From a virus (Duplodnaviria > Heunggongvirae > Uroviricota > Caudoviricetes), in IMG/VR virus record IMGVR_UViG_2541047683_000005: 17,291 nucleotides of DNA, one strand, 5' to 3'. The notes beneath the pieces are model-generated. The model was not told where the DNA came from. It worked only from the letters and a program-made list of their open reading frames with translations, and did no database searches. The position numbers and the translations under genes are program-made. Shown one piece after another: positions 1 through 16,076 of this stretch (its first letter is position 1; every line of letters starts with the position of its first letter).

Positions 1-2757
1 TCAGTTCCCCACCGCCTTTCCAAAATCCGGTGCTCTACGTGGCGCAATAGCACCCGGTTCCCACCAACTCGTTATGTCGAACTCCCGTTGCGCGCGGTCC
101 CTTACTCGATCATTGTAACCAGGGTTTGCCATCTCCTGAAGTTGTTGCAATATCAGGTGATTGGTTATCGCTTTCGCATACCACAGGTTTGCGAATGGAG
201 TGATCATGCGGGCTGTTTTCAGTGCATCGGCACCGAATGATGTTTCTTCACCCTGTAGAGCCTTCTGTGGGTTAGTAATCAGTAATTTTGTTAACTGCTC
301 TGCAAAGCTCAACACAGGGCCACCCATAGTGGCACCGATGCTGGAGCCATATTGCGTATGGTCCTGGAAAATAAAATCACCGTAGATACCGAACGAACCA
401 CCTTTCAGTAGAGCCTGAACCCATGTGGTTGGTTTTGTCATATCCAGCGGGTCATTACCATTTAACAAACTGTTCATCTGGATCGCAAACATACCAGCAA
501 GAGTTGTTCCCCCGATATATGAGGCCAGAAATTTAATGGCCGGAACGGTGTCCAAATCCCGTGTTCTGTTAACAAGTTGCCGAAATCCAGCAAATGGGGT
601 TGTTTTGAAGAGCATGAAGCTCTTCATTAACTCGCCAGCATCATCACGGGCATATGTATCAATACCCGTAGCGGTGGTCACAGCATTGGTCATCTCACCG
701 TGCGTAATTCCCAGCAATTTCTGGGCTGCTTCAGCGCGTGCATTACGAATCATGCGCGTGATGGTCTGCTCAGCCTCAGCGTCGAATGCTTCTTTCATCC
801 GTTTCAGGCGTTCTGGAGGGAGATCTCCAAGGGCTGCCAGTGCCTTTTCACTCCCGGCACGAATCCGGGCAATACGGTCTGCCATAATGTCGGCGATTAC
901 GTTATCGGGCACAGCGTAAATCGCGTCTGGCGTCATCCCCATATGCCCGGCAGTAGTCATCGGCCTGAGTTCTGCCGCTGCCATGATGGCCCAGTCCTCA
1001 TTGCTCCATCCCTTGTTAGCCAGAATGGTTTTATCGGTTCCTTTTATATCGTCCAGCGTCTTAAATTTTCTGGTCAGCTCGCCAATATTTTTGTACATCA
1101 GGAGACCAAACGACGCTTTGTTTGCGCGGTCCATAGCGATCAGCCCGGACCACTTCAGTGTCTTCTCTGCGAACCAGCCAGTTATGCCGCGAGACAAGTC
1201 AAACCCGCCCATTTTCGAAACCACAGCAGCATGTGAATCCACCAGCAGACCGAGTTCAGCATTCGCCTTTTTGGCATCTCCACTAAACAGGTTTTTGATA
1301 GTGTTAACGGAAAGCCGCATTCCACCACGGGTAAAGCCCAGCGCCTGCGCATTTGCCCGCATAATTGCCTGGTCGCTGGTTGCTGTCAGTACGCTGGTGC
1401 CAAGCATGGCGCTGGTCATCAGGTTACGCAGACCACCAACTGCTGAAGAGAACACACTCGATGAAGCGACACCATTTAGGCCAGCCATTGAGTTGAACAT
1501 ACGGGCAACTAATTTGGCCTCATCCTCCATTTCTTTTTTGCGTTTCCCGCCTGTTACTGCGCGCTTATAGATGCGATCCAGTACCAGGGAAAAGTTTCTT
1601 TCGGCGTCCGGACCAAAGGCTTTAACGACGCCCAAATCCCTGGATGATGATTGCAGGTGCGACATCATCACCCCCACCAGCGGCTGCTGAGTGTATCGCT
1701 CCATATAGGCGAAGTGTGACTGCGCATCCTTGAACGCCATCACCCTGTGCTGAGAACCACGGCTCTTTATTCCTCCGGCTCCCATAAATGTACCAGGCTC
1801 AATTTTGTTTGCCCCATCAGTGGCCTTCGTTTCAAAGATCGCTTCCAGTGCCTGACGGTACTCGACGTCATTCATAATGCTGCCGTCAGGATTAACGTAA
1901 TTGCTGCGATCCTGCGTGTTGTAAGCGTCATCAACCCATTTCTGGCGGGCAAACTCAATCGGTGGCTGGCGACCTGAAAGACGTGCTGTAGCTTGCTCTG
2001 CCACTGGTAACGATGCCAGCCATTCTTCGCGCCCGGCATTGCGAATAAGGTCAGCATCATCCACATATGGCGTATGCCAGTCTTCTCGCAGGCCTATGTC
2101 AAAGCCGTTGTCGTTCATCTCATGACGAACACGGCCTGTTACATCCTTCCAAATCTGTGCAATTTTCTTCGCCAGGGGATTACCGGTATCTTCGCCATAA
2201 ATTTCTTTCAGGATCTGGAGTTGTGCAGACTTTGCCGCCTGCCTGTCGAATACACTCCGAAACCGCTGCTCTCCAAGCGCCCTGCTCTGCTCGAAGAATT
2301 TGCGGACGTCATCACCTGCTTTTAGAAGTTCAGCACTGAGCTGACGGGACCAGTCCTGATATGCCCCAATTGCAAGCTCTTCAGCAGAAGTAACGGAGAT
2401 ATCAGCTTTGTCTCTCGATCGTCGGCCAGCAAAAATAAACTGCTGCAAATTAACAGGTGTCTGCTGATCAGGCGGGATGTTAGCATCGAGAGTGTCAGTA
2501 ATTTTACTGATGGCGATCGCATTCTGGGCAACACGCTGTCTTTTCTTGTACACATCATGAACCACACGCTGGCGTACCAGTTCTGCTGCATCCATGTATG
2601 TTTGAGCATCAGGAATACCACTTTTGCCTTCTTTTGCATTCTTTCTGTGCACATGCTGCACAGCTTCTTTGATACGATCTTCAATATTTTTCAGCTCATC
2701 AGCCTTTGGCTGGCGACCAAGTGTCTGCGCAATAGCTTCCACACATGCCTGTTTCAT
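1..2757 (-). CDS. Large hypothetical protein, 918 aa; candidate phage virion-internal/ejection-type protein (function unassigned)
   Basis: Uninterrupted minus-strand ORF ending with TGA at 3..1. The track ORF starts at 2778 but that codon is GTG (plus strand 2776-2778 is cac) with no nearby SD. The ATG at 2757 (MKQACVEAI...) has GAGGAA 6 nt upstream and overlaps the upstream stop as TAATG, so it is the preferred start. Protein is rich in A/G/S/T/N/Q with almost no Cys and has Gly/Ala/Ser-rich hydrophobic stretches (e.g. LAGLNGVASSSVFSSAVGG). No catalytic motif recognised. Confidence 0.65.
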   Translation of the reverse strand: MKQACVEAIAQTLGRQPKADELKNIEDRIKEAVQHVHRKNAKEGKSGIPDAQTYMDAAELVRQRVVHDVYKKRQRVAQNAIAISKITDTLDANIPPDQQTPVNLQQFIFAGRRSRDKADISVTSAEELAIGAYQDWSRQLSAELLKAGDDVRKFFEQSRALGEQRFRSVFDRQAAKSAQLQILKEIYGEDTGNPLAKKIAQIWKDVTGRVRHEMNDNGFDIGLREDWHTPYVDDADLIRNAGREEWLASLPVAEQATARLSGRQPPIEFARQKWVDDAYNTQDRSNYVNPDGSIMNDVEYRQALEAIFETKATDGANKIEPGTFMGAGGIKSRGSQHRVMAFKDAQSHFAYMERYTQQPLVGVMMSHLQSSSRDLGVVKAFGPDAERNFSLVLDRIYKRAVTGGKRKKEMEDEAKLVARMFNSMAGLNGVASSSVFSSAVGGLRNLMTSAMLGTSVLTATSDQAIMRANAQALGFTRGGMRLSVNTIKNLFSGDAKKANAELGLLVDSHAAVVSKMGGFDLSRGITGWFAEKTLKWSGLIAMDRANKASFGLLMYKNIGELTRKFKTLDDIKGTDKTILANKGWSNEDWAIMAAAELRPMTTAGHMGMTPDAIYAVPDNVIADIMADRIARIRAGSEKALAALGDLPPERLKRMKEAFDAEAEQTITRMIRNARAEAAQKLLGITHGEMTNAVTTATGIDTYARDDAGELMKSFMLFKTTPFAGFRQLVNRTRDLDTVPAIKFLASYIGGTTLAGMFAIQMNSLLNGNDPLDMTKPTTWVQALLKGGSFGIYGDFIFQDHTQYGSSIGATMGGPVLSFAEQLTKLLITNPQKALQGEETSFGADALKTARMITPFANLWYAKAITNHLILQQLQEMANPGYNDRVRDRAQREFDITSWWEPGAIAPRRAPDFGKAVGN

Positions 2758-4817
2758 TATGGGTTCCTCAAGAAGCACGCTGCCGCTACAGAATAAACCT
2801 TCGATTCGTTCTGGACTGTCTTAATCTGTTCATCCAGCTCAGCCAGGAGATCAGAAAGTTTTGTCGGGTTTCCGGTTTCCGGGTGAGCTATAGTCAGCTC
2901 AGGATTGGCAACAGCCATGTCCCTGGCAGCCATAAGGTCATAGCTGTTGGATGAGAGAACCTGCCCTGTATCTGGATCAACGCTGACGTCCCCTCTGTGT
3001 TCACCAGCCGATGAGAAAGCACTTTCAGCACGAGGGACAGGCGATTCACTAATTGGCTCTGATGATGTTTCATATCTGACACCATTTTCTTCAAAAACCT
3101 TTTGTATTTCATGGTATTGCTCTTGGTAAGTATCAGATATATCTGATCGCAATGGACCATCAAGCCCTCGCGCCATCCCCCCAACATTTACAGGCTGACC
3201 ATCATTAAGTTGCCTGTATGCTTCATCCATGGCGTCAACATGACTGTTGATGCTCTCATTGCTGGTGTGAAGCACTGGTGACGATTCAATATCGTAATGA
3301 AGCCCCTCATTCAAAATGTGGGCTGCATCAATATCGCTTGGTTTTATTCTTTCCCTCGCCCGGATACCAAAAACTTTTTCTACTGCGGCTTCCAGTTTCA
3401 TATTGCGAAGACGCATACTTACGAGTAACCGTAACTGCTCAGGTGTAACGGTTCCAACCTGAATACCACTGTATCTGAATATATAGGCTTTAAAACCTGA
3501 AATAATTTTTTCCCATGACGAAACGCTTGTCTTTAGAGATGGATTTACTGCATGTGCGGCAACTTCTTCAGCGTATAACCACTCAGGATATGTTTCAGGG
3601 TACTCACCCCTTTTCTTATATTCATAATATTGTGACATCCCATATGCAAATTCAGGATAGTCAGAATGCTTGTTTGCAGATTTAAGTACAGCATTAGCTA
3701 GCTTTCTGGCCTTCCAGTCAGGGTAATGGCGCTGCTCAAGATGAAGCGCCTCATGATGAAGGGTTTCTAACAGTTCTTCATGGTCTTTTAATCCATTAAT
3801 ATTTATTCTTATTATTGGTTCTTTTCCAGAAGCTACTGTCACATGACCTTTATTCAGAAGTATTTCTCCATCACTATTTTTTATTGCTGGTTCATTAATA
3901 AGTTCTATTACTCCTGAATCAGATAAATCACGAACCATTGACTCAATGTTACCATCAGGAGATTGCTGATAATGTTCACCAAAAGTTGATTTTATTTCTT
4001 CTGCAGAAATGTTCGACTCTGTACCATCATGGTTATTATGGGTAGTCAGGTGATGAACGCCACCAAAGACCCCGCCTAAAACGGCATCGACTAACATCGC
4101 CTGACCGTCAAATACCCGGTACTGTTTTGCCATCTCCGTGTAGCCTTTTTCCTCCAGTGTTGCACCGACAGAGTAACGGTTCAGTCCACCGAATCCGGTG
4201 TTGATTGCCACACCTGAGGCAATGCGCGTTGCCAGTGTGGTGCCGACGGCAGCGGGTAAGGCCATACCCACAGCATTGAAAAGGCTCTGCTGCGTTGCCA
4301 GGTTACGCGCCGTAGCCTCATCTACTCCCTTCCCTTTAAAATCCTGATAGGACTGCTCATACGTAGAACCGAAGGCTGTAGCAGCGCCGATGAGTGGGCC
4401 GCCAAACATAGTTGTTCCGATTGCAGGAACAAATTTACCAAGCTCATTTAATACCTCAGCCGCCATTCCCTGGCTGCCTGCATCAGGCTTCACATAGCTG
4501 CGGGCATCCTGTAACTGTTTTCCGATCGTGTCGTATGTATCATTCAGTGTTTTGTCAGCATCAGGGAACATCTCCCGAAAAATATTAACAGTCGGTGCCA
4601 CGTCTGCGGTAAATGCCGGATCGCTAATCAGGCGCTTGCTGAATCCGACGGCAGACTGCGCGAGACCGAGAGCCCCCTCCGCCACGCCGCTCAAAAGTGC
4701 AGTACCTGAACCCTGGAAGGGAGTCGGATCGTAGTCTTCTGGCCTTGCTGGGTTGGCAACTGTTTTGTCGTCAATCCATGCCTGACCTTCTGGAGCCAAA
4801 GAAAAAACATCAGACAT
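2757..4817 (-). CDS. Large hypothetical protein, 686 aa, with glycine-rich hydrophobic segments and an HExxH (HHEALH) zinc-metallopeptidase-like motif
   Basis: ATG at 4817 overlaps the upstream stop as TAATG; GAGGG lies 7 nt upstream. N-terminal third has glycine-zipper-like hydrophobic segments (GKFVPAIGTTMFGGPLIGAATAFG; LVDAVLGGVFGGV). HHEALH is encoded at 3741-3758, inside a visibly AT-richer patch (about 3400-4060). Confidence 0.65.
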   Translation of the reverse strand: MSDVFSLAPEGQAWIDDKTVANPARPEDYDPTPFQGSGTALLSGVAEGALGLAQSAVGFSKRLISDPAFTADVAPTVNIFREMFPDADKTLNDTYDTIGKQLQDARSYVKPDAGSQGMAAEVLNELGKFVPAIGTTMFGGPLIGAATAFGSTYEQSYQDFKGKGVDEATARNLATQQSLFNAVGMALPAAVGTTLATRIASGVAINTGFGGLNRYSVGATLEEKGYTEMAKQYRVFDGQAMLVDAVLGGVFGGVHHLTTHNNHDGTESNISAEEIKSTFGEHYQQSPDGNIESMVRDLSDSGVIELINEPAIKNSDGEILLNKGHVTVASGKEPIIRININGLKDHEELLETLHHEALHLEQRHYPDWKARKLANAVLKSANKHSDYPEFAYGMSQYYEYKKRGEYPETYPEWLYAEEVAAHAVNPSLKTSVSSWEKIISGFKAYIFRYSGIQVGTVTPEQLRLLVSMRLRNMKLEAAVEKVFGIRARERIKPSDIDAAHILNEGLHYDIESSPVLHTSNESINSHVDAMDEAYRQLNDGQPVNVGGMARGLDGPLRSDISDTYQEQYHEIQKVFEENGVRYETSSEPISESPVPRAESAFSSAGEHRGDVSVDPDTGQVLSSNSYDLMAARDMAVANPELTIAHPETGNPTKLSDLLAELDEQIKTVQNESKVYSVAAACFLRNP

Positions 4818-7348
4818 TATTCAACCCTCACGACAATAGCTTTATTGGTTCTGGGATCTGTTGCCCAGCGTCCGCTACCATTTACAAGCCGATACCGGTT
4901 ATTGCCGATATTAACTGGCGTGAAATTTGACACTGCATTTACGTTAAGTCCGGCATCTTTCAGTGCTTGTTTCGCAGATGTGGTATAGCGATCTTTGAAA
5001 GTAGATTTATCCATGCCGAAAGGCATTACAACGTCGCCGCCATTAAAACCATTGTATATACCGCCAGTAGCATACTTCACGGCATCAGCTACAATGTCTG
5101 TATCAGGCATACTGGTTCTTACCGTAGATGCATCACCAGATTGATAAGCTATTCCTGCATAAGCGGCTTTGAAAAGGCTATAACTGATCTGGCGTAACTG
5201 CGGGTTACGGGCAAATGCATTACCTACCTGTTCGTCGAAAGCGTCTTTCATCTTATCTTCGCTCGGCAACTGTACCGGAGTTATGCCCGCATTCTTCATG
5301 GCCTTCGTCGGATTCAGTAGTTGGTCGCCGGAAAGAATAACCTTTGCAACGTCGTACTTGTTCATCGTCGGCTTATACCCGATGAACTGACTATATGGGA
5401 TCGTCGGCTTGGTGTTGTCGTACTGGTTATCCGGCGTGCCCAGCAGCAGCGCAGAATAGGCTGTTGCCGCACTGTTCGGAGCAATTACAGATGCCACCTG
5501 CCGTATTGCTGGCGCAGGCAGCTTCTCCCCCATGCTCTGCAACAGTTTAATTGTCTGGTCAACGTTCTGAGTGCCGCGCACCTGCTGTGCCAGCGCAGCC
5601 GCCTCTTCACTGTTGAGGATTGGGGCATTAATTCCCAACGCGCGTAAGCTTTCCTGCGACGAGAAACGGTTAGCCACCTCGGCAGTGATGTCGTCAGGGT
5701 TGTTGCTGGTGATCGGCTTATAGGCTCCGATTTCCACCGCTGCACTAAACGGATTATTCTGCCTCTGGGTTATTACCTTCGTGGCTGCCGCCGATACCCG
5801 GTCGAATAACTCCGCACGAGACGCATACCCCTCCCCTGTTTCACCAGTATCCGGGCGCAATTGCTCAACATATGCGGTAATGCTGCTTGTCGGCATGTTG
5901 CGGAAAGAGCCTATATACTGTCCGGCGATCTGCAAATTTCTGAACTCGATATATCGCAGGTTTCCTTCTCTGACACCATAAGCTGCAATGAACTCATCCT
6001 CACCAGGTGGGTTAGGAAATTCAACGCCACGCATAAACGCAGCCGTCGCATCGCGAACCCTGCTATCGAGCATCGTTCTATATTCAGCCTGCTGCTGTCT
6101 GGCTAATGCATCCGTCTGTCGCAACACGCTGGCCTGATCTGATTCATTTAAAGCATCGAACCAGGCTACACCGGTATAACGTTTATTTTTTGTCGGTAGC
6201 TGAGAAAGCCCCAGTGCGGCACTAACACCTGCAGTTAACTGCTGATCACTGTATGGCTGGCTACCGTTTTCATGATGGATAATGGCTGCACAAAGCGCCT
6301 TCAGGGTATCAGGATTTGATGCATCGAGAGGCTCATCAGCAGAAACGCCAAGTTGTTCGCACACTGCTTTGATATACGACATAGTGTCATTTTTATCAGT
6401 AGGCGGTGCCCAGCGATTAATTATCTCGCTGACGGTATCAATACCCTGCCGCTGATACGACATCAGGTTCCGCCCTAATGCACGAATACCGTGTTCAGGG
6501 GTTTCGAATTTGGCAAAGCGACCATCATCACCAGTCTGCCCAACCCACGGATTAGTTTTGCTGTATTCAAGATTGCCGGGGTTATTGTTGCGTATACCGC
6601 GGGTACGATCGGAAGAGCCACTATCTGCTACAGCACGGCGAGATCCAGCAGCAGTATCGCTTAACTCGCCGTTTTGCTGTCTTACCTGAAGATAGTTTGC
6701 TCCAATAGCATTTTGAGCAGTTGCTTTTGCTGTTGCTTCTTTAAACTCGATTTTCTTGGCCTGGATTTGCTCGTCGCTCCAGCCATGCGCAATACCGTAA
6801 TCCTCAATTTGCTGGAAAGTTTGCGTATTAGCCAATATGTATGCTGCGTTGTCGCCATATAATGCTGCGGCATTTTTACCATTATTCAGCAGTGTCGCCT
6901 GAAACTGGCCTTCTTCGTAGGCATTTATTTGCCCTATCTCGTACCTCCCGGCCTGCGTAGTGAACTGAATGCGCTGCTGCTGCGCCTGCTGCATGAAAGC
7001 ATTACGAGCCTGTTCATCCGGCAGCGACATAGCCAGTTGTTCGACCTGAGCATCAAACTGCTGTGTATACTCATGGCCTTTTCCAATAGCATTTTTCCCT
7101 TTCAGATTAAGCAATCCTGTTTCAGGATTATTCAGCAGATCACTGCCTGTCTGACTGAGTTTAAGGGATGCCTCCTGAACCAAGGCAATATTGGCGCGCT
7201 GTTTTGCCTGACCAAGAACATCAATTGCCTCTGTCCCTGCCCGAACAAAAGCATCACCAATACCTGGCTGAGAAAACGTCTGCAAGCCTGCTGACTGAAC
7301 TCCACGGCTCTCAACCTGACGTCCGGATACTGTTGGTACGACTGGCAT
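4817..7348 (-). CDS. Large hypothetical protein, 843 aa; candidate phage virion-internal protein (function unassigned)
   Basis: ATG at 7348 with GGGGG 6 nt upstream; stop overlaps the next gene start (TAATG at 4815-4819). Gln/Ala/Asn-rich N-terminus typical of phage structural proteins. Conserved-looking segment RNNNPGNLEYSKTNPWVGQ...RWAPPTDKNDT at about aa 251-330 (nt about 6239-6598). Confidence 0.65.
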   Translation of the reverse strand: MPVVPTVSGRQVESRGVQSAGLQTFSQPGIGDAFVRAGTEAIDVLGQAKQRANIALVQEASLKLSQTGSDLLNNPETGLLNLKGKNAIGKGHEYTQQFDAQVEQLAMSLPDEQARNAFMQQAQQQRIQFTTQAGRYEIGQINAYEEGQFQATLLNNGKNAAALYGDNAAYILANTQTFQQIEDYGIAHGWSDEQIQAKKIEFKEATAKATAQNAIGANYLQVRQQNGELSDTAAGSRRAVADSGSSDRTRGIRNNNPGNLEYSKTNPWVGQTGDDGRFAKFETPEHGIRALGRNLMSYQRQGIDTVSEIINRWAPPTDKNDTMSYIKAVCEQLGVSADEPLDASNPDTLKALCAAIIHHENGSQPYSDQQLTAGVSAALGLSQLPTKNKRYTGVAWFDALNESDQASVLRQTDALARQQQAEYRTMLDSRVRDATAAFMRGVEFPNPPGEDEFIAAYGVREGNLRYIEFRNLQIAGQYIGSFRNMPTSSITAYVEQLRPDTGETGEGYASRAELFDRVSAAATKVITQRQNNPFSAAVEIGAYKPITSNNPDDITAEVANRFSSQESLRALGINAPILNSEEAAALAQQVRGTQNVDQTIKLLQSMGEKLPAPAIRQVASVIAPNSAATAYSALLLGTPDNQYDNTKPTIPYSQFIGYKPTMNKYDVAKVILSGDQLLNPTKAMKNAGITPVQLPSEDKMKDAFDEQVGNAFARNPQLRQISYSLFKAAYAGIAYQSGDASTVRTSMPDTDIVADAVKYATGGIYNGFNGGDVVMPFGMDKSTFKDRYTTSAKQALKDAGLNVNAVSNFTPVNIGNNRYRLVNGSGRWATDPRTNKAIVVRVE

Positions 7349-12012: not shown

Positions 12013-12270
12013 TTATTTCCCGGTATGGGGTTCTTCTTTATATTTATGGGCTAACAAATCTGGTAATTGCCTGTATTTATCCTCGGCAATATATTCAGAA
12101 TAATCGACAGCACTGTTCAGTATATCTAACGCCGTTTCATGCTCCAGATTCGAAACTATAAGGAACGTTGCTACTTTTAGCATATTCGCGATATGCAAAA
12201 GAGCATCAATTTCATTTTTTGGCGCTTCGCTGAATTTTTGCTCCAGAAGAATAAATCGTTCATCACGCAT
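12013..12270 (-). CDS. Small hypothetical protein, 85 aa
   Basis: ATG at 12270 with strong SD AGGAGGA 6 nt upstream; overlaps the upstream ORF stop by 8 nt. Acidic, helical-looking protein with no recognised domain. Confidence 0.55.
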   Translation of the reverse strand: MRDERFILLEQKFSEAPKNEIDALLHIANMLKVATFLIVSNLEHETALDILNSAVDYSEYIAEDKYRQLPDLLAHKYKEEPHTGK

Positions 12271-13231
12271 AGTGTTCCTCCTGACGGATGCGGGCAGTAA
12301 ATACCATCACGCAGCCAGCCGGGGATTGCTGACGGGCTTCCTGTTCGCTGGTGGCCTCGATGTGGATTACGCGCGGTTGTGCCGTACTCAGGGCGATAAA
12401 ACGCCAGATAAAATTGTTTTCGCATTTCTGAATAAACAGCGTGTTTTCTTCGCGCCCTTTCCATGTTGCCGAGATATAGCCCATGTCATTGAGCATCTCG
12501 CAGGCATCAACCAGCGTATCAGCGGCTACGTGTACAGTGTTTTTACCGTCAGCTATGCAATCACGGTGCACCGCCAGGAAGGTGTATATAAATTTAGGGT
12601 GAGTTTGGGTATGCTGTGTTCCAGCCATAATCGTTACCTCGTTTAACGGTTTGGTTAGACGCCCTGCATGTGTTGCGAGCACTGCGGGGCGTTGCTCTTT
12701 CAGGTGTATTTCACCTTTGCTTTTTAATTTACTCACTGGTGAAATACACTTCAAGCCTTTTTTTATCATTTTTTTTGCGTATACTGACATACACCAATTT
12801 TTAGGAGATCCAGAAATGGCAACTGGTGCAAAGAACGCAAAATCACAAATGACAACTGTCAGAATCCCACATGAAGTAATGGATGATATTGAGCAACTTA
12901 AAGAACCTGGCGAAAGTACCGCTGGTTTTTTAGTTACTGCCGCAAAAGGCGAGATCAAACGCCGCCAGCGCCGCAAGGCCAAAGAACAGGAATAGCCCAC
13001 CAGCAAGCCAGCACATTCACCATAATGACCCTCGGTTAAAGCTAGGGTCATTACCTCGTCGTTATCCAGAACTGAAACGGCATCAGTAACATTGCTGATT
13101 TCCAGCGCAGCACACACATCAGCGCCAACAAACCACGGCTCGCCGTTGATACTCACTATGCGCACCTGAATGTCATCGAATTTAATGACAGAGATTTCAG
13201 TGCGCCCGGCATAAAAGACAGGTTTACGCAT
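12263..13231 (-). CDS. Bro-N domain protein ORF (322-aa open frame; probably composite, true 3' extent uncertain)
   Basis: ATG at 13231 with GGAGGTGA 6 nt upstream, 2 nt after the antirepressor stop. N-terminal ~70 aa match the Bro-N pattern (INGEPWFVGADVCAALEISN...LDNDE). The middle of the frame is Cys/Ser-rich and looks non-coding: it is antisense to a plus-strand RHH gene and runs through an AT-rich promoter-like region. The last 122 aa have their own SD (GAGGT) and ATG at 12628 and may be a separate gene, 12263..12628. Confidence 0.45.
   Translation of the reverse strand: MRKPVFYAGRTEISVIKFDDIQVRIVSINGEPWFVGADVCAALEISNVTDAVSVLDNDEVMTLALTEGHYGECAGLLVGYSCSLALRRWRRLISPFAAVTKKPAVLSPGSLSCSISSITSCGILTVVICDFAFFAPVAISGSPKNWCMSVYAKKMIKKGLKCISPVSKLKSKGEIHLKEQRPAVLATHAGRLTKPLNEVTIMAGTQHTQTHPKFIYTFLAVHRDCIADGKNTVHVAADTLVDACEMLNDMGYISATWKGREENTLFIQKCENNFIWRFIALSTAQPRVIHIEATSEQEARQQSPAGCVMVFTARIRQEEHYA
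12703..12750. promoter_or_regulatory. Inverted repeat (candidate operator) in the RHH-gene upstream region
   Basis: GGTGTATTTCACC (12703-12715) and GGTGAAATACAC (12738-12749) form a 12/13-bp inverted repeat with a 22-bp spacer, followed by T-runs and a TATACT -10-like hexamer (12780-12785) upstream of the RHH gene SD/ATG. Confidence 0.4.
12816..12995 (+). CDS. Small ribbon-helix-helix (Arc/Mnt/CopG-like) DNA-binding protein, 59 aa
   Basis: ATG at 12816 with SD AGGAGA 7 nt upstream. Protein MATGAKNAKSQMTTVRIPHEVMDDIEQL... has a beta-strand-like TVRIPHEV followed by two helical segments and a basic tail (KRRQRRKAKEQE). Only convincing plus-strand gene; antisense to the long Bro-N frame. Confidence 0.5.
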   Translation: MATGAKNAKSQMTTVRIPHEVMDDIEQLKEPGESTAGFLVTAAKGEIKRRQRRKAKEQE

Positions 13232-13991
13232 GGCTGCTCACCTCCATGCGGCGGGCTAACCAGCGTTGCGAAAGGCGAATTAATTCAGCTTTCCGCTGGT
13301 GGTAGTCCTGGCCTAACTCAATCAGCGTGATATTGCTCTGCTCAAGGTAAGAAAGGTGCTCAAGCTGCAACGTGCTCATGTGGTCGCGTGGTTCGCCTGT
13401 GATGCCGTTCGCCTGCGCCCACTGTTTTGCAGTCATGCCACCCAGCACGATACGCGCCAGCATATTGGCTTCCGTGGTGTAGTGGTGCTGGAGCGTGTTT
13501 TTACCCAGTTCAGCCCGGTACGTCTCCAGCGCGGCGCACATAGGCTTAAAGTGGCTGGCTACGGTGATACGGGCTTTCAGTTCCCGGCGTAACGCTGCGG
13601 AACGTACAGGCGCTATCTTGTGTAGCTCCTCCTCGCATTTGATGAAGTACTGACGAACGGCGCGGCCCTGATCATTGCGTTCGATCATTGCCAGTTCTTT
13701 CGCCATTCCGACACTTAACAGATAGTCTTTACCGGGTCTGCCAGAGTGCTTAATCTTGCTGTAAGCCGCGCCATTCGGGCTTTTCCCCAAATTTGGGGAA
13801 ATTGTTTTATGGACTGAGTAATCGTACCCAATGGTGAAGTCATATTCAGAGATGCGATCAGTGATCCATGTAGAGAAGTCTTTTCCCACGCCCAACGCTT
13901 TGTGTAACGCTTTTGCGCTAACAACAGCGGCTTCACGCCCGCCAATAACGCCGGATGCTACCGGAATAATTGCAGCAAAATTCTTAAGCAT
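13224..13991 (-). CDS. Phage antirepressor, AntA/AntB-domain protein
   Basis: 255 aa. N-terminal region VVSAKALHKALGVGKDFSTWITDRISEYDFTIGYDY...GRPGKDYLLSVGMAKELAMIERNDQGRAVRQYFIKCEEEL matches the AntA/AntB antirepressor signature. ATG at 13991 with GGGGGTGA upstream; overlaps the Rha-like gene by 8 nt. Confidence 0.75.
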   Translation of the reverse strand: MLKNFAAIIPVASGVIGGREAAVVSAKALHKALGVGKDFSTWITDRISEYDFTIGYDYSVHKTISPNLGKSPNGAAYSKIKHSGRPGKDYLLSVGMAKELAMIERNDQGRAVRQYFIKCEEELHKIAPVRSAALRRELKARITVASHFKPMCAALETYRAELGKNTLQHHYTTEANMLARIVLGGMTAKQWAQANGITGEPRDHMSTLQLEHLSYLEQSNITLIELGQDYHQRKAELIRLSQRWLARRMEVSSHA

Positions 13992-14682
13992 GTTTCACCC
14001 CCAGAGACGGCGCTGACGTTATCAGGCTGGCGAACGTCTCCATGCGGCGGGCAACCTCCCGCACCGCTTCGGTCGGTGCCATGCCGTTCTGTATCGCTTC
14101 GTGAAATGCTGCCTGCTCGATTTTCTGCATGACCACCAGCAAACCTAACTGCTGATCGCTGGCTGCCTGGCGTTCACCTGTTACCAATCCGGCAAAACGG
14201 TTTTCTGTGCGTGCCAGATTGATGTAGTGGTGACGTTCTGCACCCAGTGCTTTAAGTCCCTCACGGCTTTCGTGATAGCCCGGCAGATATTCGCGGCGTA
14301 CGGGTTCAGCGGCGCGACGCTTTGCAAATGCCTTTGTAACATCCAGCTTGAAGCGGTTCATGCGTTCATCATCACGACCGCGCACAATGCGACACATGTA
14401 ATCAAACTGATCGCTATTCAGGAGGGCAAACTTATGTTCACGCTCCCCGTTTTGACGGGTTTTTAATCGCTCCGTTTGAAACGGAAGGATGCCCAGTTCA
14501 CGCAATCCGGTTTTGTGCTTCTGAATGAGCGAATAAAGGTTTTTGTGCTTTATGCCAATACGCTCAGCAAATAAGCGGGAATCAATGCGCGACTCTGCTT
14601 TGTGGCGAATCAATATATCGCTCTGGCTGGCTTCAGGCTGAACGAAGCCCTGCCCCTGTACGGGCATATATGGACGGTTCAT
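13984..14682 (-). CDS. Putative phage regulatory protein (Rha-like)
   Basis: 232 aa. Segment DSRLFAERIGIKHKNLYSLIQKH...FALLNSDQFDYM resembles the Rha-family pattern (SR-IAE-GK-H-NVLR-I ... Y-L-D). ATG at 14682 with AGGAG 7 nt upstream. Assignment is moderate. Confidence 0.5.
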   Translation of the reverse strand: MNRPYMPVQGQGFVQPEASQSDILIRHKAESRIDSRLFAERIGIKHKNLYSLIQKHKTGLRELGILPFQTERLKTRQNGEREHKFALLNSDQFDYMCRIVRGRDDERMNRFKLDVTKAFAKRRAAEPVRREYLPGYHESREGLKALGAERHHYINLARTENRFAGLVTGERQAASDQQLGLLVVMQKIEQAAFHEAIQNGMAPTEAVREVARRMETFASLITSAPSLGVKHA

Positions 14683-14758: not shown

Positions 14759-14956
14759 TCAAGCAGCCGTTCCGCGTGATTCGGCAATACGCTGATTGAT
14801 CCATTCGTCAATTTCACTTTCAACGAAAGCAATCGCTCGCGAGCCAATTTTAACTGATGCAGGAAATTTACCTTGCCCCATAAGGCGATAAATCCATGCC
14901 TTGCTATATCCAGTTCTACGCTGAACTTCTGTTAAACGAATAAGCGTATTTGACAT
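14759..14956 (-). CDS. alpA: AlpA-family transcriptional regulator (prophage CP4-57-type regulatory protein)
   Basis: 65 aa. MSNTLIRLTEVQRRTGYSKAWIYRLMGQGKFPASVKIGSRAIAFVESEIDEWINQR matches the AlpA helix-turn-helix and the conserved E-IDEW-xQR C-terminus. ATG at 14956 with GAGGT upstream. Confidence 0.9.
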   Translation of the reverse strand: MSNTLIRLTEVQRRTGYSKAWIYRLMGQGKFPASVKIGSRAIAFVESEIDEWINQRIAESRGTAA

Positions 14957-15026
14957 CTATTTACCTCATAACGTCTACTCAATTTGACGAGGTAATCATG
15001 GCACAGAAATAACGAATATTTTCATA

Positions 15027-15135
15027 CCCTCAGGCCTAATGGTTACCGGAAGGAAATTAACCCTAAGGGTGATGGTAAAATTGACGGAGAAGATAAAAAA
15101 ACACCCTCAGGGTAACAGTAAATCACCCTCAGGGT
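15027..15135. promoter_or_regulatory. Array of helically phased palindromic sites (ACCCTnAGGGT) upstream of alpA
   Basis: Palindromes ACCCTAAGGGT (15060-15070), ACCCTCAGGGT (15103-15113) and ACCCTCAGGGT (15125-15135), plus a half-site-like ACCCTCAGG (15027-15035). Start-to-start spacing is 33, 43 and 22 bp, roughly multiples of one helical turn. Lies in the 194-bp intergenic region between the 265-aa gene stop and the alpA start. Confidence 0.6.
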
Positions 15136-15150
15136 ATGCGGTATGGTGCG

Positions 15151-15948
15151 TTAATCCGGCTTTGCGTTCTTTTGGCTGTTGTCTCGGTTAATAGGGCAGG
15201 CAGTCCTCTCTATGAGCGTTGCAAGAGCATTACTTGCCCCCCACTGCTTAAGCTCCCTGGTTATCGCTTCTTGATTTCCCCTGGTGGCAAAATCATTTTC
15301 TGGATCGTAATTGGCCCACTCTCTGTTTCTAATCTCAATAGCCTTAGCTAATGGGTCTTTATCCCAGTATTTATATAAGTGTATCGGGCGCTCTTGCTCT
15401 AACTGCTCTATCCTTGCCCTTAACTCTGCGTTTTCTTTTTCCAGCCTTGCGATTTGGGATAATAAATCATCCTCTGTACGCAACTCTTTCTTTTCAATAT
15501 CGCGTCCTTGTGCCTCGTCATTTTCAGAAGAGTTAGCGCCTTCCAGCTTCGTTAACGCGTCAAGGACATCGGGAAAAATTGCGAAAATTTCACCCCTTAT
15601 AAATCCAATGTTCTCAAATTCGGGATCTTCCCAATAACCGGACACCAGAAAACCATTTTCATCCCTCTCACCAGGTAAACAACCACGTTTCCGAACCGCA
15701 TTCAGATTTCTATAAAGAACATCATAATCAAATTCATCCCGATACGGGTTACAAAAAGATTCCAACAGCTTAAATTCATTTACTGTGTACAGGCGGATAT
15801 GTTCTCCGCTTATTCTCCTGAGTATCCAAGTTATGACATCTGAAACATCATAATCATCACCAGCGACCTTAAGCACGACCTCAAGAAATTCACGTAAAGA
15901 AATAAAATCTTTTTTGTATTCGTTTAATTCGGCATGAATATCAATCAT
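15151..15948 (-). CDS. Hypothetical protein, 265 aa, with central coiled-coil segment; AT-rich orphan gene between int and alpA
   Basis: The track ORF starts at 15954 but that codon is GTG directly abutting GAGGT. The ATG at 15948 has GAGGT 6 nt upstream and is the preferred start. Contains a heptad-like segment LLSQIARLEKENAELRARIEQLEQE. The gene is visibly more AT-rich than its neighbours. No enzymatic motif recognised. Confidence 0.6.
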   Translation of the reverse strand: MIDIHAELNEYKKDFISLREFLEVVLKVAGDDYDVSDVITWILRRISGEHIRLYTVNEFKLLESFCNPYRDEFDYDVLYRNLNAVRKRGCLPGERDENGFLVSGYWEDPEFENIGFIRGEIFAIFPDVLDALTKLEGANSSENDEAQGRDIEKKELRTEDDLLSQIARLEKENAELRARIEQLEQERPIHLYKYWDKDPLAKAIEIRNREWANYDPENDFATRGNQEAITRELKQWGASNALATLIERTACPINRDNSQKNAKPD

Positions 15949-16076
15949 ACGCACACCTCAGCGTCCTCTACTGTAGTGGCTGTACCAGTCCGTCGAGGTG
16001 TACGGATTTTCGGGAGCGATCCTAGACACAGCCTTTTCTTTCGTCGCTCAAAGTCTACTACTGTATACGCAACCAG

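What the first reader, a model, noticed from the sequence alone, without database searches (positions are those of the whole stretch)
15027..15135. Helically phased palindromic operator array upstream of alpA
Three full palindromes of ACCCTnAGGGT plus a partial copy are spaced at roughly integral helical turns (33, 43, 22 bp) in the alpA upstream region. That is the signature of cooperative binding by a dimeric regulator on one face of the DNA. It could be the master switch controlling alpA (and hence excision) of the element. The binding protein is unknown; candidates are AlpA itself, the RHH protein or the 265-aa coiled-coil protein.
Basis: seen in the sequence. Interest (0 to 1): 0.6.

Follow-up and report, generated by a model that had tools for sequence, protein, structure and literature searches.

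The report
Phased operator array controlling satellite alpA
A row of short palindromes in front of the master activator gene (alpA) of an E. coli phage satellite is real and conserved, and it always travels with the uncharacterised coiled-coil protein encoded just upstream, which makes that protein the likely missing regulator of how such satellites stay silent.

Summary
Exact ACCCTNAGGGT copies lie at 15060, 15103 and 15125. The "partial" copy starts at 15026 and is half of an 18-bp dyad (15026-15043) next to the predicted alpA -10.

The window is a PICI-type phage satellite at tRNA-Gly, with int, a 265-aa ORF, alpA and a primase all on the minus strand. In divergent relatives the spacer DNA is unalignable, yet the palindromes keep fixed positions relative to the alpA ATG. 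Their spacings are multiples of about 10.8 bp.

Among 81 loci chosen only by AlpA similarity:
- The array is present in 41/41 loci that encode the conserved C-terminal domain of the 265-aa protein.
- It is present in 0/40 others, including loci whose AlpA is 97% identical.
- The RHH, AntA and Rha genes show no association.
- A homologous C-domain class carries a different phased repeat.

Best reading: these are operators for the coiled-coil protein, which probably represses PalpA. Binding itself is inferred, not shown; the domain matches no known fold and is not basic.

In this lineage sites A and B also fold, on the transcribed strand, into a -23.9 kcal/mol hairpin followed by U7. This is an intrinsic terminator that insulates alpA from upstream transcription.

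I found no description of this module in the searchable literature.

The parts
15125..15135 (.). Site A, ACCCTCAGGGT; centre at -174 from the alpA ATG
   Evidence: Exact match. A site occurs at -173 to -175 in 21 of 41 unique arrays.
15103..15113 (.). Site B, ACCCTCAGGGT; centre at -152
   Evidence: Exact match. A site occurs at -149 to -153 in 24 of 41 unique arrays.
15094..15137 (-). Intrinsic terminator formed by sites A and B in the RNA of the int/265-aa transcript, a 15-bp hairpin followed by GU7
   Evidence: RNA fold gives -23.9 kcal/mol, z = -5.8, with 0 of 200 shuffles as stable. It starts 14 nt after the stop codon of the 265-aa ORF. The T-run is present only in the E. coli lineage, in 19 of 41 unique arrays. 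Other lineages have a separate hairpin plus T-run upstream of the array.
15060..15076 (.). Site C with a third half-site (minus strand ACCATcACCCTtAGGGT); centre at -109. This is the 33-bp unit present in 1-3 tandem copies among E. coli strains.
   Evidence: Exact match. A site at -107 to -109 occurs in 35 of 41 unique arrays. The triple half-site recurs in relatives. Copy-number variants are shown.
15026..15043 (.). Site D, an 18-bp imperfect dyad (minus strand ACCATTAGGCCTGAGGGT) with half-sites 13 bp apart, abutting the predicted -10.
   Evidence: (I5). It is a conserved block, CC.T.A.gCcT.A.GgT, and a perfect dyad ACCCTCATGCCTGAGGGT in L027/L111.
15018..15023 (-). Predicted alpA -10 hexamer GAAAAT (GATAAT in relatives); prediction only
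   Evidence: It sits directly 3' of site D in all lineages. The consensus scan found no strong sigma-70 promoter here, so the -35 is weak. A start site upstream of the leader hairpin is required by the hairpin's RNA-type conservation.
14961..14995 (-). alpA leader hairpin whose 3' arm contains the Shine-Dalgarno GAGG
   Evidence: It is conserved across regulator classes and tolerates G-U-compatible changes.
14759..14956 (-). alpA (65 aa, Phage_AlpA PF05930), the regulated gene
   Evidence: Pfam E = 2.4e-19.
15151..15948 (-). 265-aa coiled-coil protein, the proposed array-binding regulator: variable N-domain, acidic linker, coiled coil (about 159-186) and conserved C-domain
   Evidence: There are no Pfam hits other than sub-threshold matches to the coiled coil.
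15184..15393 (-). Conserved C-terminal four-helix domain (residues 186-255, ending ...ACPINR), the feature that co-occurs with the array
   Evidence: Alignment invariants. AF2 pLDDT 86.6. Co-occurrence 41/41 against 0/40.

Best explanation
The array is the operator region of the alpA promoter of a PICI-type phage satellite integrated at tRNA-Gly.

Proposed mechanism:
- The 265-aa protein encoded immediately upstream dimerises through its coiled coil.
- Its conserved C-terminal four-helix domain recognises ACCCT half-sites arranged as 5-N-5 palindromes.
- Several dimers bind on one face of the DNA, at sites spaced n x ~10.8 bp.
- The complex ends on the 18-bp dyad that overlaps the alpA core promoter, and it most likely keeps alpA, and so the whole satellite cycle, switched off.
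- The variable N-terminal domain is the probable input that releases the DNA when a helper phage is active.

In this E. coli lineage the two distal sites also act in RNA. In the int/265-aa transcript they pair into a hairpin followed by U7. This terminates read-through, so that alpA depends on its own regulated promoter.

What is shown: the sites, their conservation, their phasing, the terminator fold and the exclusive co-occurrence with the C-domain. What is inferred: direct binding, repression rather than activation, the promoter position and helper sensing.
For: 1. Selection on the sites. In relatives with AlpA 72-82%, the 265-aa homologue 34-62% and integrase 54-66% identical, the spacers are unalignable. 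The palindromes nonetheless sit at about -206, -174, -152, -108 and -74 from the alpA ATG. A roughly 200-bp mosaic patch (15120-15320, about 45% identity between the window and L005) still keeps sites A and B in place.

2. Double-stranded DNA geometry. Spacings cluster at multiples of about 10.8 bp, R = 0.84.

3. Partner protein. In 81 loci selected only by AlpA similarity (>=75%), the array is present in 41/41 loci with the C-domain and 0/40 without, Fisher p about 8e-22, not corrected for phylogeny. The 0/40 group includes L093-L098, whose AlpA is 97% identical. YlcI, AntA, Rha and Int show no association.

4. Same pairing in other genera. It is seen in Proteus, Citrobacter and Pantoea, and in a phage-like contig with no alpA.

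5. Covariation.
   - Distant C-domains (P0037, Pasteurellaceae P0079) are followed by ACTATnATAGT palindromes of the same 5-N-5 geometry.
   - A homologous C-domain class (hhalign 95.7%, E = 1e-8) goes with ATGGTGGGY repeats at -69, -91, -124, -190 and -211, again about 11-bp phased.
   - Other upstream-ORF families each have their own repeats.

6. No other DNA-binding domain. None of 75 family representatives carries a known DNA-binding domain, and stand-alone C-domains of 61-83 aa exist.

7. Terminator. -23.9 kcal/mol, z = -5.8, followed by U7.

8. Biology. AlpA is the helper-induced master activator of Gram-negative PICIs, and no repressor is known for them (PMC6092414, PMC11773190).
Against: - No binding data exist.
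- The domain is charge-neutral (pI about 6.6-6.9) and the whole protein is acidic (pI 4.7).
- The gene and the array are adjacent, so part of the co-occurrence could be linkage.
- Many of the 41 array loci are near-identical E. coli elements; I estimate only about 10-14 independent lineages.
- The promoter is predicted only, and the consensus scan found no good sigma-70 match.
- The experimentally studied PICIs have helper-inducible alpA without this module. EcCIMP1, checked, has neither the gene nor the array. Helper sensing therefore does not generally require it.
- Half-site centres only 6 bp apart are unusual for helix-turn-helix dimers.
Confidence: 0.6

Rival explanations
1. The sites are bound by a protein not encoded next to them, either a helper-phage regulator or a host factor. 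The 265-aa protein would then be linked functionally but indirectly, for example as a modulator of that factor, or merely by adjacency.
For: Helper phages induce alpA promoters in related PICIs that have no such gene (PMC6092414; PMC11773190). The C-domain has no recognisable DNA-binding fold and is not basic. The gene and the array are physically adjacent.
Against: Co-occurrence is exclusive at 41/41 against 0/40 across several genera and with unrelated N-domains. Motif class changes with C-domain class, which a common host factor would not explain. The scan of viral contigs for paired sites returned satellites and unrelated repeats, with no candidate helper-phage immunity region apart from L052, which itself encodes the C-domain.
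Confidence: 0.2
2. The palindromes act only in RNA, as a terminator or attenuator built from mutually complementary segments (A:B, B:C and C:D pairings). No DNA-binding protein would be involved.
For: The A:B hairpin is -23.9 kcal/mol and is followed by U7. C and D pair in the full-length fold, z = -3.6. Other lineages also place a terminator after the upstream ORF.
Against: A hairpin does not require each arm to be a palindrome. The U-run is absent in 22 of 41 unique arrays. Odd numbers of sites and a variant with a single distal site occur (L023/L059). The conserved ~10.8-bp phasing is a property of double-stranded DNA. The terminator forms before C is transcribed, so B:C cannot compete with it. 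No Rfam family matches.
Confidence: 0.08
3. AlpA itself binds the palindromes, as positive autoregulation or as a recombination directionality factor.
For: AlpA activates its own promoter in EcCICFT073 and EcCIMP1 (PMC6092414, PMC11773190). It is a small basic winged-helix DNA-binding protein.
Against: Loci L093-L098 encode AlpA 97% identical to the window's and have no such site within 400 bp upstream. EcCIMP1 AlpA has a nearly identical recognition region and no array. L052 has the array with no alpA downstream. What travels with AlpA is the leader region carrying TAGACGTT.
Confidence: 0.05
4. The repeats are iterons of the satellite's replication origin.
For: The 33-bp tandem unit varies between 1 and 3 copies, and the 22/33-bp phasing resembles iterons.
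Against: The location is upstream of alpA and 3.3 kb from the primase-helicase gene. The same motif occurs with DUF927 proteins only 42-58% identical. Sites are palindromic rather than directly repeated. In Gram-negative PICIs the origin lies downstream of pri (PMC10111431).
Confidence: 0.03

Closest known systems
SaPI Stl master repressor and its operators in the stl-str divergent region (Gram-positive PICIs)
   Same: Both are satellite-encoded regulators placed next to int, with operators at the promoter that starts the satellite cycle. Both are modular, with one DNA-binding part and one variable part that could sense a helper-phage protein. Both exist in many specificity variants.
   Different: Stl has an N-terminal helix-turn-helix domain and is transcribed divergently. 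Here the gene is co-directional with int and alpA, the conserved (putative DNA-binding) domain is C-terminal and of no recognised fold, and the regulated gene is an activator (alpA). Repression and helper sensing are not shown here.
Lambdoid immunity regions (CI/Cro with OR/OL operator triplets)
   Same: Both have several dyad-symmetric sites, cooperative same-face arrangement, overlap with a core promoter, and regulator-operator pairs swapped as mosaic modules.
   Different: The sites here are 11 bp (5-N-5), not 17 bp. They are spread over 110-240 bp at 2-5 helical turns. There is no divergent promoter pair, and the protein is unrelated.
alpA promoter of Gram-negative PICIs EcCICFT073 and EcCIMP1 (helper-induced, AlpA-autoactivated)
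   Same: The element type and gene order are the same (int ... alpA ... primase). AlpA is 78% identical to that of EcCIMP1.
   Different: EcCIMP1, which I checked, has a 427-bp int-alpA spacer with no ORF and no ACCCTNAGGGT array. No cis-element or repressor has been reported for either PICI in the papers I could search.
Rho-independent terminators
   Same: Sites A and B form a GC-rich 15-bp hairpin followed by U7, 14 nt after a stop codon, on the transcribed strand.
   Different: Both arms are themselves palindromes identical to two further sites downstream, and the feature is lineage-specific.

Membership tests
Repressor/operator (immunity-type) module | Repeated dyad-symmetric sites under purifying selection | tested here: met
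   Sites are conserved at fixed positions while spacers diverge.
Repressor/operator (immunity-type) module | Cognate regulator gene that co-occurs and covaries with the site sequence | tested here: met
   C-domain present in 41/41 array loci against 0/40. Different C-domain classes go with different phased motifs.
Repressor/operator (immunity-type) module | Direct, sequence-specific binding of the protein to the sites | not testable with these tools
   There is no fold match to a known DNA-binding domain. EMSA or footprinting is needed.
Repressor/operator (immunity-type) module | An operator overlaps the core promoter of the regulated gene | tested here: inconclusive
   Site D abuts a conserved GAAAAT/GATAAT hexamer. 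No start site is known, and the consensus scan found no strong promoter.
Intrinsic (Rho-independent) terminator | Stable GC-rich hairpin immediately followed by a U-tract on the transcribed strand, downstream of a gene | tested here: met
   -23.9 kcal/mol, z = -5.8, followed by U7, 14 nt after the stop codon.
Intrinsic (Rho-independent) terminator | The terminator feature is conserved wherever the array occurs | tested here: not met
   The T-run is absent in 22 of 41 unique arrays. Those lineages have separate terminators.
bZIP transcription factor (RefSeq label of the 265-aa protein in strain E1) | Basic DNA-contact region immediately N-terminal to a leucine zipper | tested here: not met
   The residues before the coiled coil are acidic (ENDEAQGRDIEKKELRTEDD). 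There is no Pfam bZIP hit. PDB hits to Max and C/EBP cover only the zipper, at E >= 0.002.
Pseudomonas AlpA antiterminator with its ABE element | Roughly 150-aa Q-like protein with a C-terminal HTH that binds GGGACG between -35 and -10 | tested here: not met
   The window AlpA is a 65-aa PF05930 protein. The Pseudomonas protein numbers residues up to at least 142 and has eight helices (PMC9371919). The shared name is a coincidence.
Iteron-type replication origin | Direct repeats near, and covarying with, the initiator gene | tested here: not met
   The same motif occurs with DUF927 proteins 42-58% identical. The sites are palindromic and lie upstream of alpA.
Gram-negative PICI (phage-inducible chromosomal island) | Unidirectional int, alpA and primase genes, tRNA-adjacent insertion, about 15-20 kb, no virion genes | tested here: met
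   tRNA-Gly, int, alpA, DUF927 and SSB are annotated. Related viral contigs are 15-17 kb.
Gram-negative PICI (phage-inducible chromosomal island) | Induction and packaging by a helper phage | not testable with these tools
   This has been shown only for other islands (PMC6092414, PMC11773190).
Any Rfam RNA family | Covariance-model match in 15026-15135 | tested here: not met
   There is no hit at gathering score. The only hit is RAGATH-25 at E = 0.36.

The most novel reading that the evidence does not exclude
The variable gene between int and alpA encodes the so far unidentified master repressor of a large group of Gram-negative PICIs. Its features would be a new, small C-terminal DNA-binding domain that exists in several specificity classes, each with its own helically phased operator array. 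A coiled coil provides dimerisation. Swappable N-terminal domains sense helper-phage proteins. This would be a functional analogue of SaPI Stl built from unrelated parts.
Probability: 0.35. Interest if true: 0.75.

Novelty: new variant of a known kind. Interest (0 to 1): 0.6.

Why it matters
How Gram-negative PICIs stay silent and sense their helper phage is an open question. Fillol-Salom et al. 2018 state that a global repressor is "unclear" and that the phage inducer is "under study". I found no later paper that identifies a cis-element or a repressor.

This locus offers a concrete and cheap test: one protein, one 110-bp DNA fragment and defined half-sites.

If the inference holds, three things follow:
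- It defines a new DNA-binding domain family, about 159 clusters at 50% identity, nearly always C-terminal, with no Pfam model.
- It provides a set of natural orthogonal regulator/operator pairs.
- It explains the mosaic int-alpA interval of these satellites as an immunity-like specificity module.

About 3% of complete E. coli genomes (162 of 5,426) carry this particular version.

Tried and rejected
- Pseudomonas AlpA/ABE antitermination as a model. Rejected: that AlpA is an unrelated, much larger protein.

- The RefSeq "bZIP" label. Rejected: only the coiled coil matches and there is no basic region.

- Sequence searches. Pfam, PHROGs and PDB sequence searches of the protein found only coiled-coil noise.

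- Genome-contig scan for paired sites.

- Restriction site. CCTNAGG inside the motif is the Bsu36I/Eco81I recognition site (my own knowledge). I treat this as coincidence. The conserved unit is 11 bp plus flanks, and it follows the C-domain gene, not the cargo.

- Arm-type integrase sites. Rejected: the array is 2.3 kb from the tRNA-side att and is not correlated with the integrase allele.

- A fixed sigma-70 promoter. The scan found none in the intergenic region. An alternative pairing (TGAAAA-N18-CATGAT) would start transcription inside the leader hairpin. I consider it less likely, because the hairpin shows RNA-type (G-U tolerant) conservation.

- Leader hairpin covariation within the main sequence class. 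It was weak: 1 double change and mostly one-sided G-U changes. The stronger support comes from other classes with different arms.

Full report
**What the window is**

The 1.4 kb around the finding is 99.9% identical to E. coli strain E1 and is present in 162 of 5,426 complete E. coli genomes. In E1 the island sits next to tRNA-Gly. All genes are on the minus strand, in this order:
- integrase
- a 265-aa "hypothetical/bZIP" protein
- alpA
- Rha-, AntA- and BRO-type genes
- an Icd-like gene
- DUF4222
- a DUF927 primase-helicase
- SSB
- ProQ
- PerC
- three large unannotated ORFs

Pfam confirms int, AlpA (PF05930), Rha, AntA, DUF927, SSB and ProQ. This is the gene order of Gram-negative phage-inducible chromosomal islands (PICIs). 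In PICIs, AlpA is the activator required for induction, and its promoter is switched on by the helper phage (PMC6092414; PMC11773190).

**The observation**

ACCCTNAGGGT occurs exactly at 15060, 15103 and 15125 and nowhere else in the window, even with one mismatch. Chance expectation in the 194-bp intergenic region is 1.7e-4 sites. The partial copy begins at 15026, not 15027, so the spacings are 34, 43 and 22.

Read in the direction of transcription, the order is A (15135-15125), B (15113-15103), C (15070-15060), D, then the alpA ATG at 14956. D is really an 18-bp dyad, ACCATTAGG|CCTGAGGGT (15043-15026). C is preceded by a third half-site.

On the transcribed strand, A and B pair into a 15-bp hairpin of -23.9 kcal/mol (z = -5.8, 0 of 200 shuffles as stable). 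It is followed immediately by GU7 and starts 14 nt after the stop codon of the 265-aa ORF. This is a canonical intrinsic terminator between the upstream genes and alpA.

It cannot be the whole story, for these reasons:
- A terminator does not need arms that are themselves palindromes, nor two further copies downstream.
- The U-run exists only in the closely related E. coli lineage, 19 of 41 unique arrays.
- Other lineages place an ordinary hairpin plus T-run between the stop codon and the array (L149, L150; Pantoea L280).

**Comparative test of the sites**

E. coli variants carry 1, 2 or 3 tandem copies of the 33-bp unit holding site C, and the two-copy form is the commonest.

A scan of viral contigs for two sites 5-35 bp apart gave 63 loci. 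About 40 of them are int / 265-aa homologue / array / alpA satellites on contigs of about 15-17 kb. In the divergent ones (AlpA 72-82%, 265-aa homologue 34-62%, integrase 54-66% identical) the spacers cannot be aligned. The sites nevertheless sit at about -206, -174, -152 and -108, with the D dyad at -74.

Within E. coli, a roughly 200-bp patch (15120-15320) is only about 45% identical between the window and L005. The flanks are 84-100% identical, and both versions keep A and B in place.

Adjacent spacings from 21 distinct architectures fall at 21-24, 32-34, 42-44 and 54-55 bp. R = 0.84 at a 10.5-10.8 bp period. This is a property of double-stranded DNA and indicates same-face binding.

**Who binds**

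That scan was conditioned on the motif, so I built a second set from AlpA alone. It comprises the 80 viral-contig loci with AlpA at least 75% identical to the window's, plus EcCIMP1, the experimentally studied island.

Results:
- Every locus whose upstream ORF ends in ...AIE(L/M/K)VACPI(K/Q/N)R has the array. No locus with any other upstream ORF has it.
- By tblastn, the C-domain is present in 41/41 array loci and 0/40 others.
- The others include L093-L098, whose AlpA is 97% identical to the window's. EcCIMP1 has neither the gene nor the array.
- The YlcI-type RHH (30/41 against 16/40), AntA (24 against 18), the Rha-like ORF (2 against 2) and integrase (40 against 37) are not associated.

The association is with the C-terminal part only. 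N-terminal domains are shuffled between array and non-array families.

The same pairing occurs in Proteus, Citrobacter and Pantoea. It also occurs in a phage-like contig (L052) where no alpA follows.

**Covariation**

- Distant C-domains (P0037; Pasteurellaceae P0079, a stand-alone 66-aa protein) are followed by ACTATnATAGT palindromes, the same 5-N-5 geometry with different bases.
- The upstream ORFs of L093, L102, L121, L122, L126 and L141 have a C-terminus homologous to the C-domain (hhalign 95.7%, E = 1e-8) but with a different tail (LRPxxLxxIGRR).
- Their intergenic regions carry ATGGTGGGY/RCCCACCAT repeats at about -69, -91, -124, -190 and -211. These are spaced 22, 33 and 21 bp, and the proximal copy abuts a TATAxT hexamer.
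- Further ORF families have their own repeats: ACTTCCAAA in 4-6 copies, ACCGCAATTGCGGT in 2, TTGCATGCAA in 2 and GGAATATTCC in 2.

The int-alpA interval therefore behaves as a swappable regulator-plus-operator module.

**What the protein is**

All homologues are annotated "hypothetical" and have no Pfam domain. An exhaustive profile search finds only 159 cluster representatives, nearly always with the domain at the extreme C-terminus. Of 75 representatives scanned, none has a known DNA-binding domain.

Architecture of the 265-aa protein:
- a confidently modelled but variable N-domain
- an acidic linker
- a coiled coil (about residues 159-186)
- a 70-aa four-helix C-domain

AF2 gives pLDDT 74 for the full length and 86.6 for the C-domain alone. 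Neither model matches a solved fold.

The RefSeq "bZIP" label reflects only the zipper-like coiled coil, and there is no basic region.

One caution: the C-domain is charge-neutral and the protein is acidic. Direct DNA binding is inferred from genomics, not from the fold.

**Mechanism proposed**

The layout in transcription order is:
- regulator gene
- terminator
- phased operators
- alpA core promoter (predicted -10 GAAAAT at 15023-15018, directly after site D)
- leader hairpin that sequesters the Shine-Dalgarno sequence (14995-14961)
- alpA

In both C-domain classes the proximal operator abuts or overlaps the predicted core promoter. I therefore favour repression, roughly 60:40 over activation given that binding occurs, with the upstream sites adding cooperativity. 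The shuffled N-domains are natural candidates for the helper-phage input, by analogy with SaPI Stl. That step is pure inference. EcCIMP1 shows that helper induction of alpA can occur without this module.

**Rivals**

- AlpA as the binder is contradicted by the loci with 97%-identical AlpA and no array.
- A purely RNA role is contradicted by the phasing, the dyad symmetry and the lineages that lack a U-run.
- Iterons are contradicted by position and by the lack of covariation with the DUF927 initiator.
- A helper or host protein binding the sites remains the main alternative, at about 0.2.

**Novelty**

Searches of the paper library found no description of these sites or of a regulator between int and alpA. 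Rfam has nothing in the array, though it places the known int-alpA RNA motif just upstream of the 265-aa start codon. I class this as a new variant of a known kind (a repressor/operator specificity module) built on an undescribed domain.

Noticed in passing
window 15965-16032 (-): The Rfam int-alpA RNA motif (RF02996; 41.4 bits against a gathering score of 35.8) lies between the int stop and the 265-aa start codon, ending 17 nt before that ATG. Here it precedes the variable regulator gene rather than alpA, so it may be that gene's 5' UTR element.
   Followed up: no
window 14961-14995 (-); L071-L150: The alpA leader forms a hairpin whose 3' arm holds the Shine-Dalgarno sequence. It is kept across regulator classes and tolerates changes that are G-U compatible in RNA (for example TTTTGTAA/TTACGAGG in L106). 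Other lineages have entirely different arms (CTCCTGT/ACAGGAG; CTTAGTATTC/GAATACTAAG). A TAGACGTT motif is conserved nearby in either orientation and could be the AlpA autoregulatory site.
   Followed up: partly
window 15044-15076; L002, L003, L038: The 33-bp unit carrying site C varies in copy number among E. coli strains: one copy in the window, two in most genomes and three in L002/L038. One variant (L023/L059) lacks one of sites A or B.
   Followed up: yes
window 15120-15320: This is a mosaic patch. The last ~55 codons of the 265-aa gene plus sites A and B are about 45% identical to strain TUM9812 (L005), while the flanks are 84-100% identical. Recombination has exchanged exactly the end of the C-domain together with the distal operators.
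   Followed up: yes
window 1-7348 (-): Three consecutive large ORFs (843, 686 and at least 925 aa) in the satellite's accessory position have no Pfam or PADLOC match. They are a candidate uncharacterised cargo or defence operon.
   Followed up: partly
window 13984-14682 (-): The 232-aa Rha-like ORF between alpA and antA is absent from the other E. coli variants examined (L002-L006), where antA follows alpA directly. The 322-aa BRO-N ORF (12263-13231) looks disrupted; RefSeq annotates fragments and an Icd-like gene there.
   Followed up: no
L093, L102, L121, L122, L126, L141; L114, L129, L133, L138, L140; L101, L103, L139, L148: Other families of the int-alpA ORF carry their own repeat sets upstream of alpA (ATGGTGGGY; ACTTCCAAA; ACCGCAATTGCGGT; TTGCATGCAA; GGAATATTCC), often 20-22 or 33 bp apart. 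This suggests many orthogonal regulator/operator pairs.
   Followed up: partly
L052 5476-6340: A 39-kb phage-like contig encodes a C-domain protein (258 aa, ...VERVACPINRGR) after an XRE-type gene. It is followed by ACCCTCAGGGT sites but no alpA. A convergent XRE-type gene lies downstream, so the module is not restricted to satellites.
   Followed up: partly
L050 9490-9680; L159-L238: The same 11-mer occurs in unrelated contexts. One viral contig has a tandem array of 33-bp repeats, of which three carry exact ACCCTAAGGGT copies 33 bp apart. Chloroflexota, Desulfobacterales and Cytophagales genomes have interspersed repeats with two copies 18-19 bp apart. None encodes the C-domain nearby (checked for L050 only).
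   Followed up: partly
P0125 (344 aa, metagenomic): One protein combines a segment matching the coiled coil and the first half of the C-domain (residues 34-94, E = 3e-20). One of the 75 family representatives scanned matches LacI-type periplasmic-binding domains, and I did not confirm that it is P0125. It may be a gene fusion or an assembly artefact.
   Followed up: no
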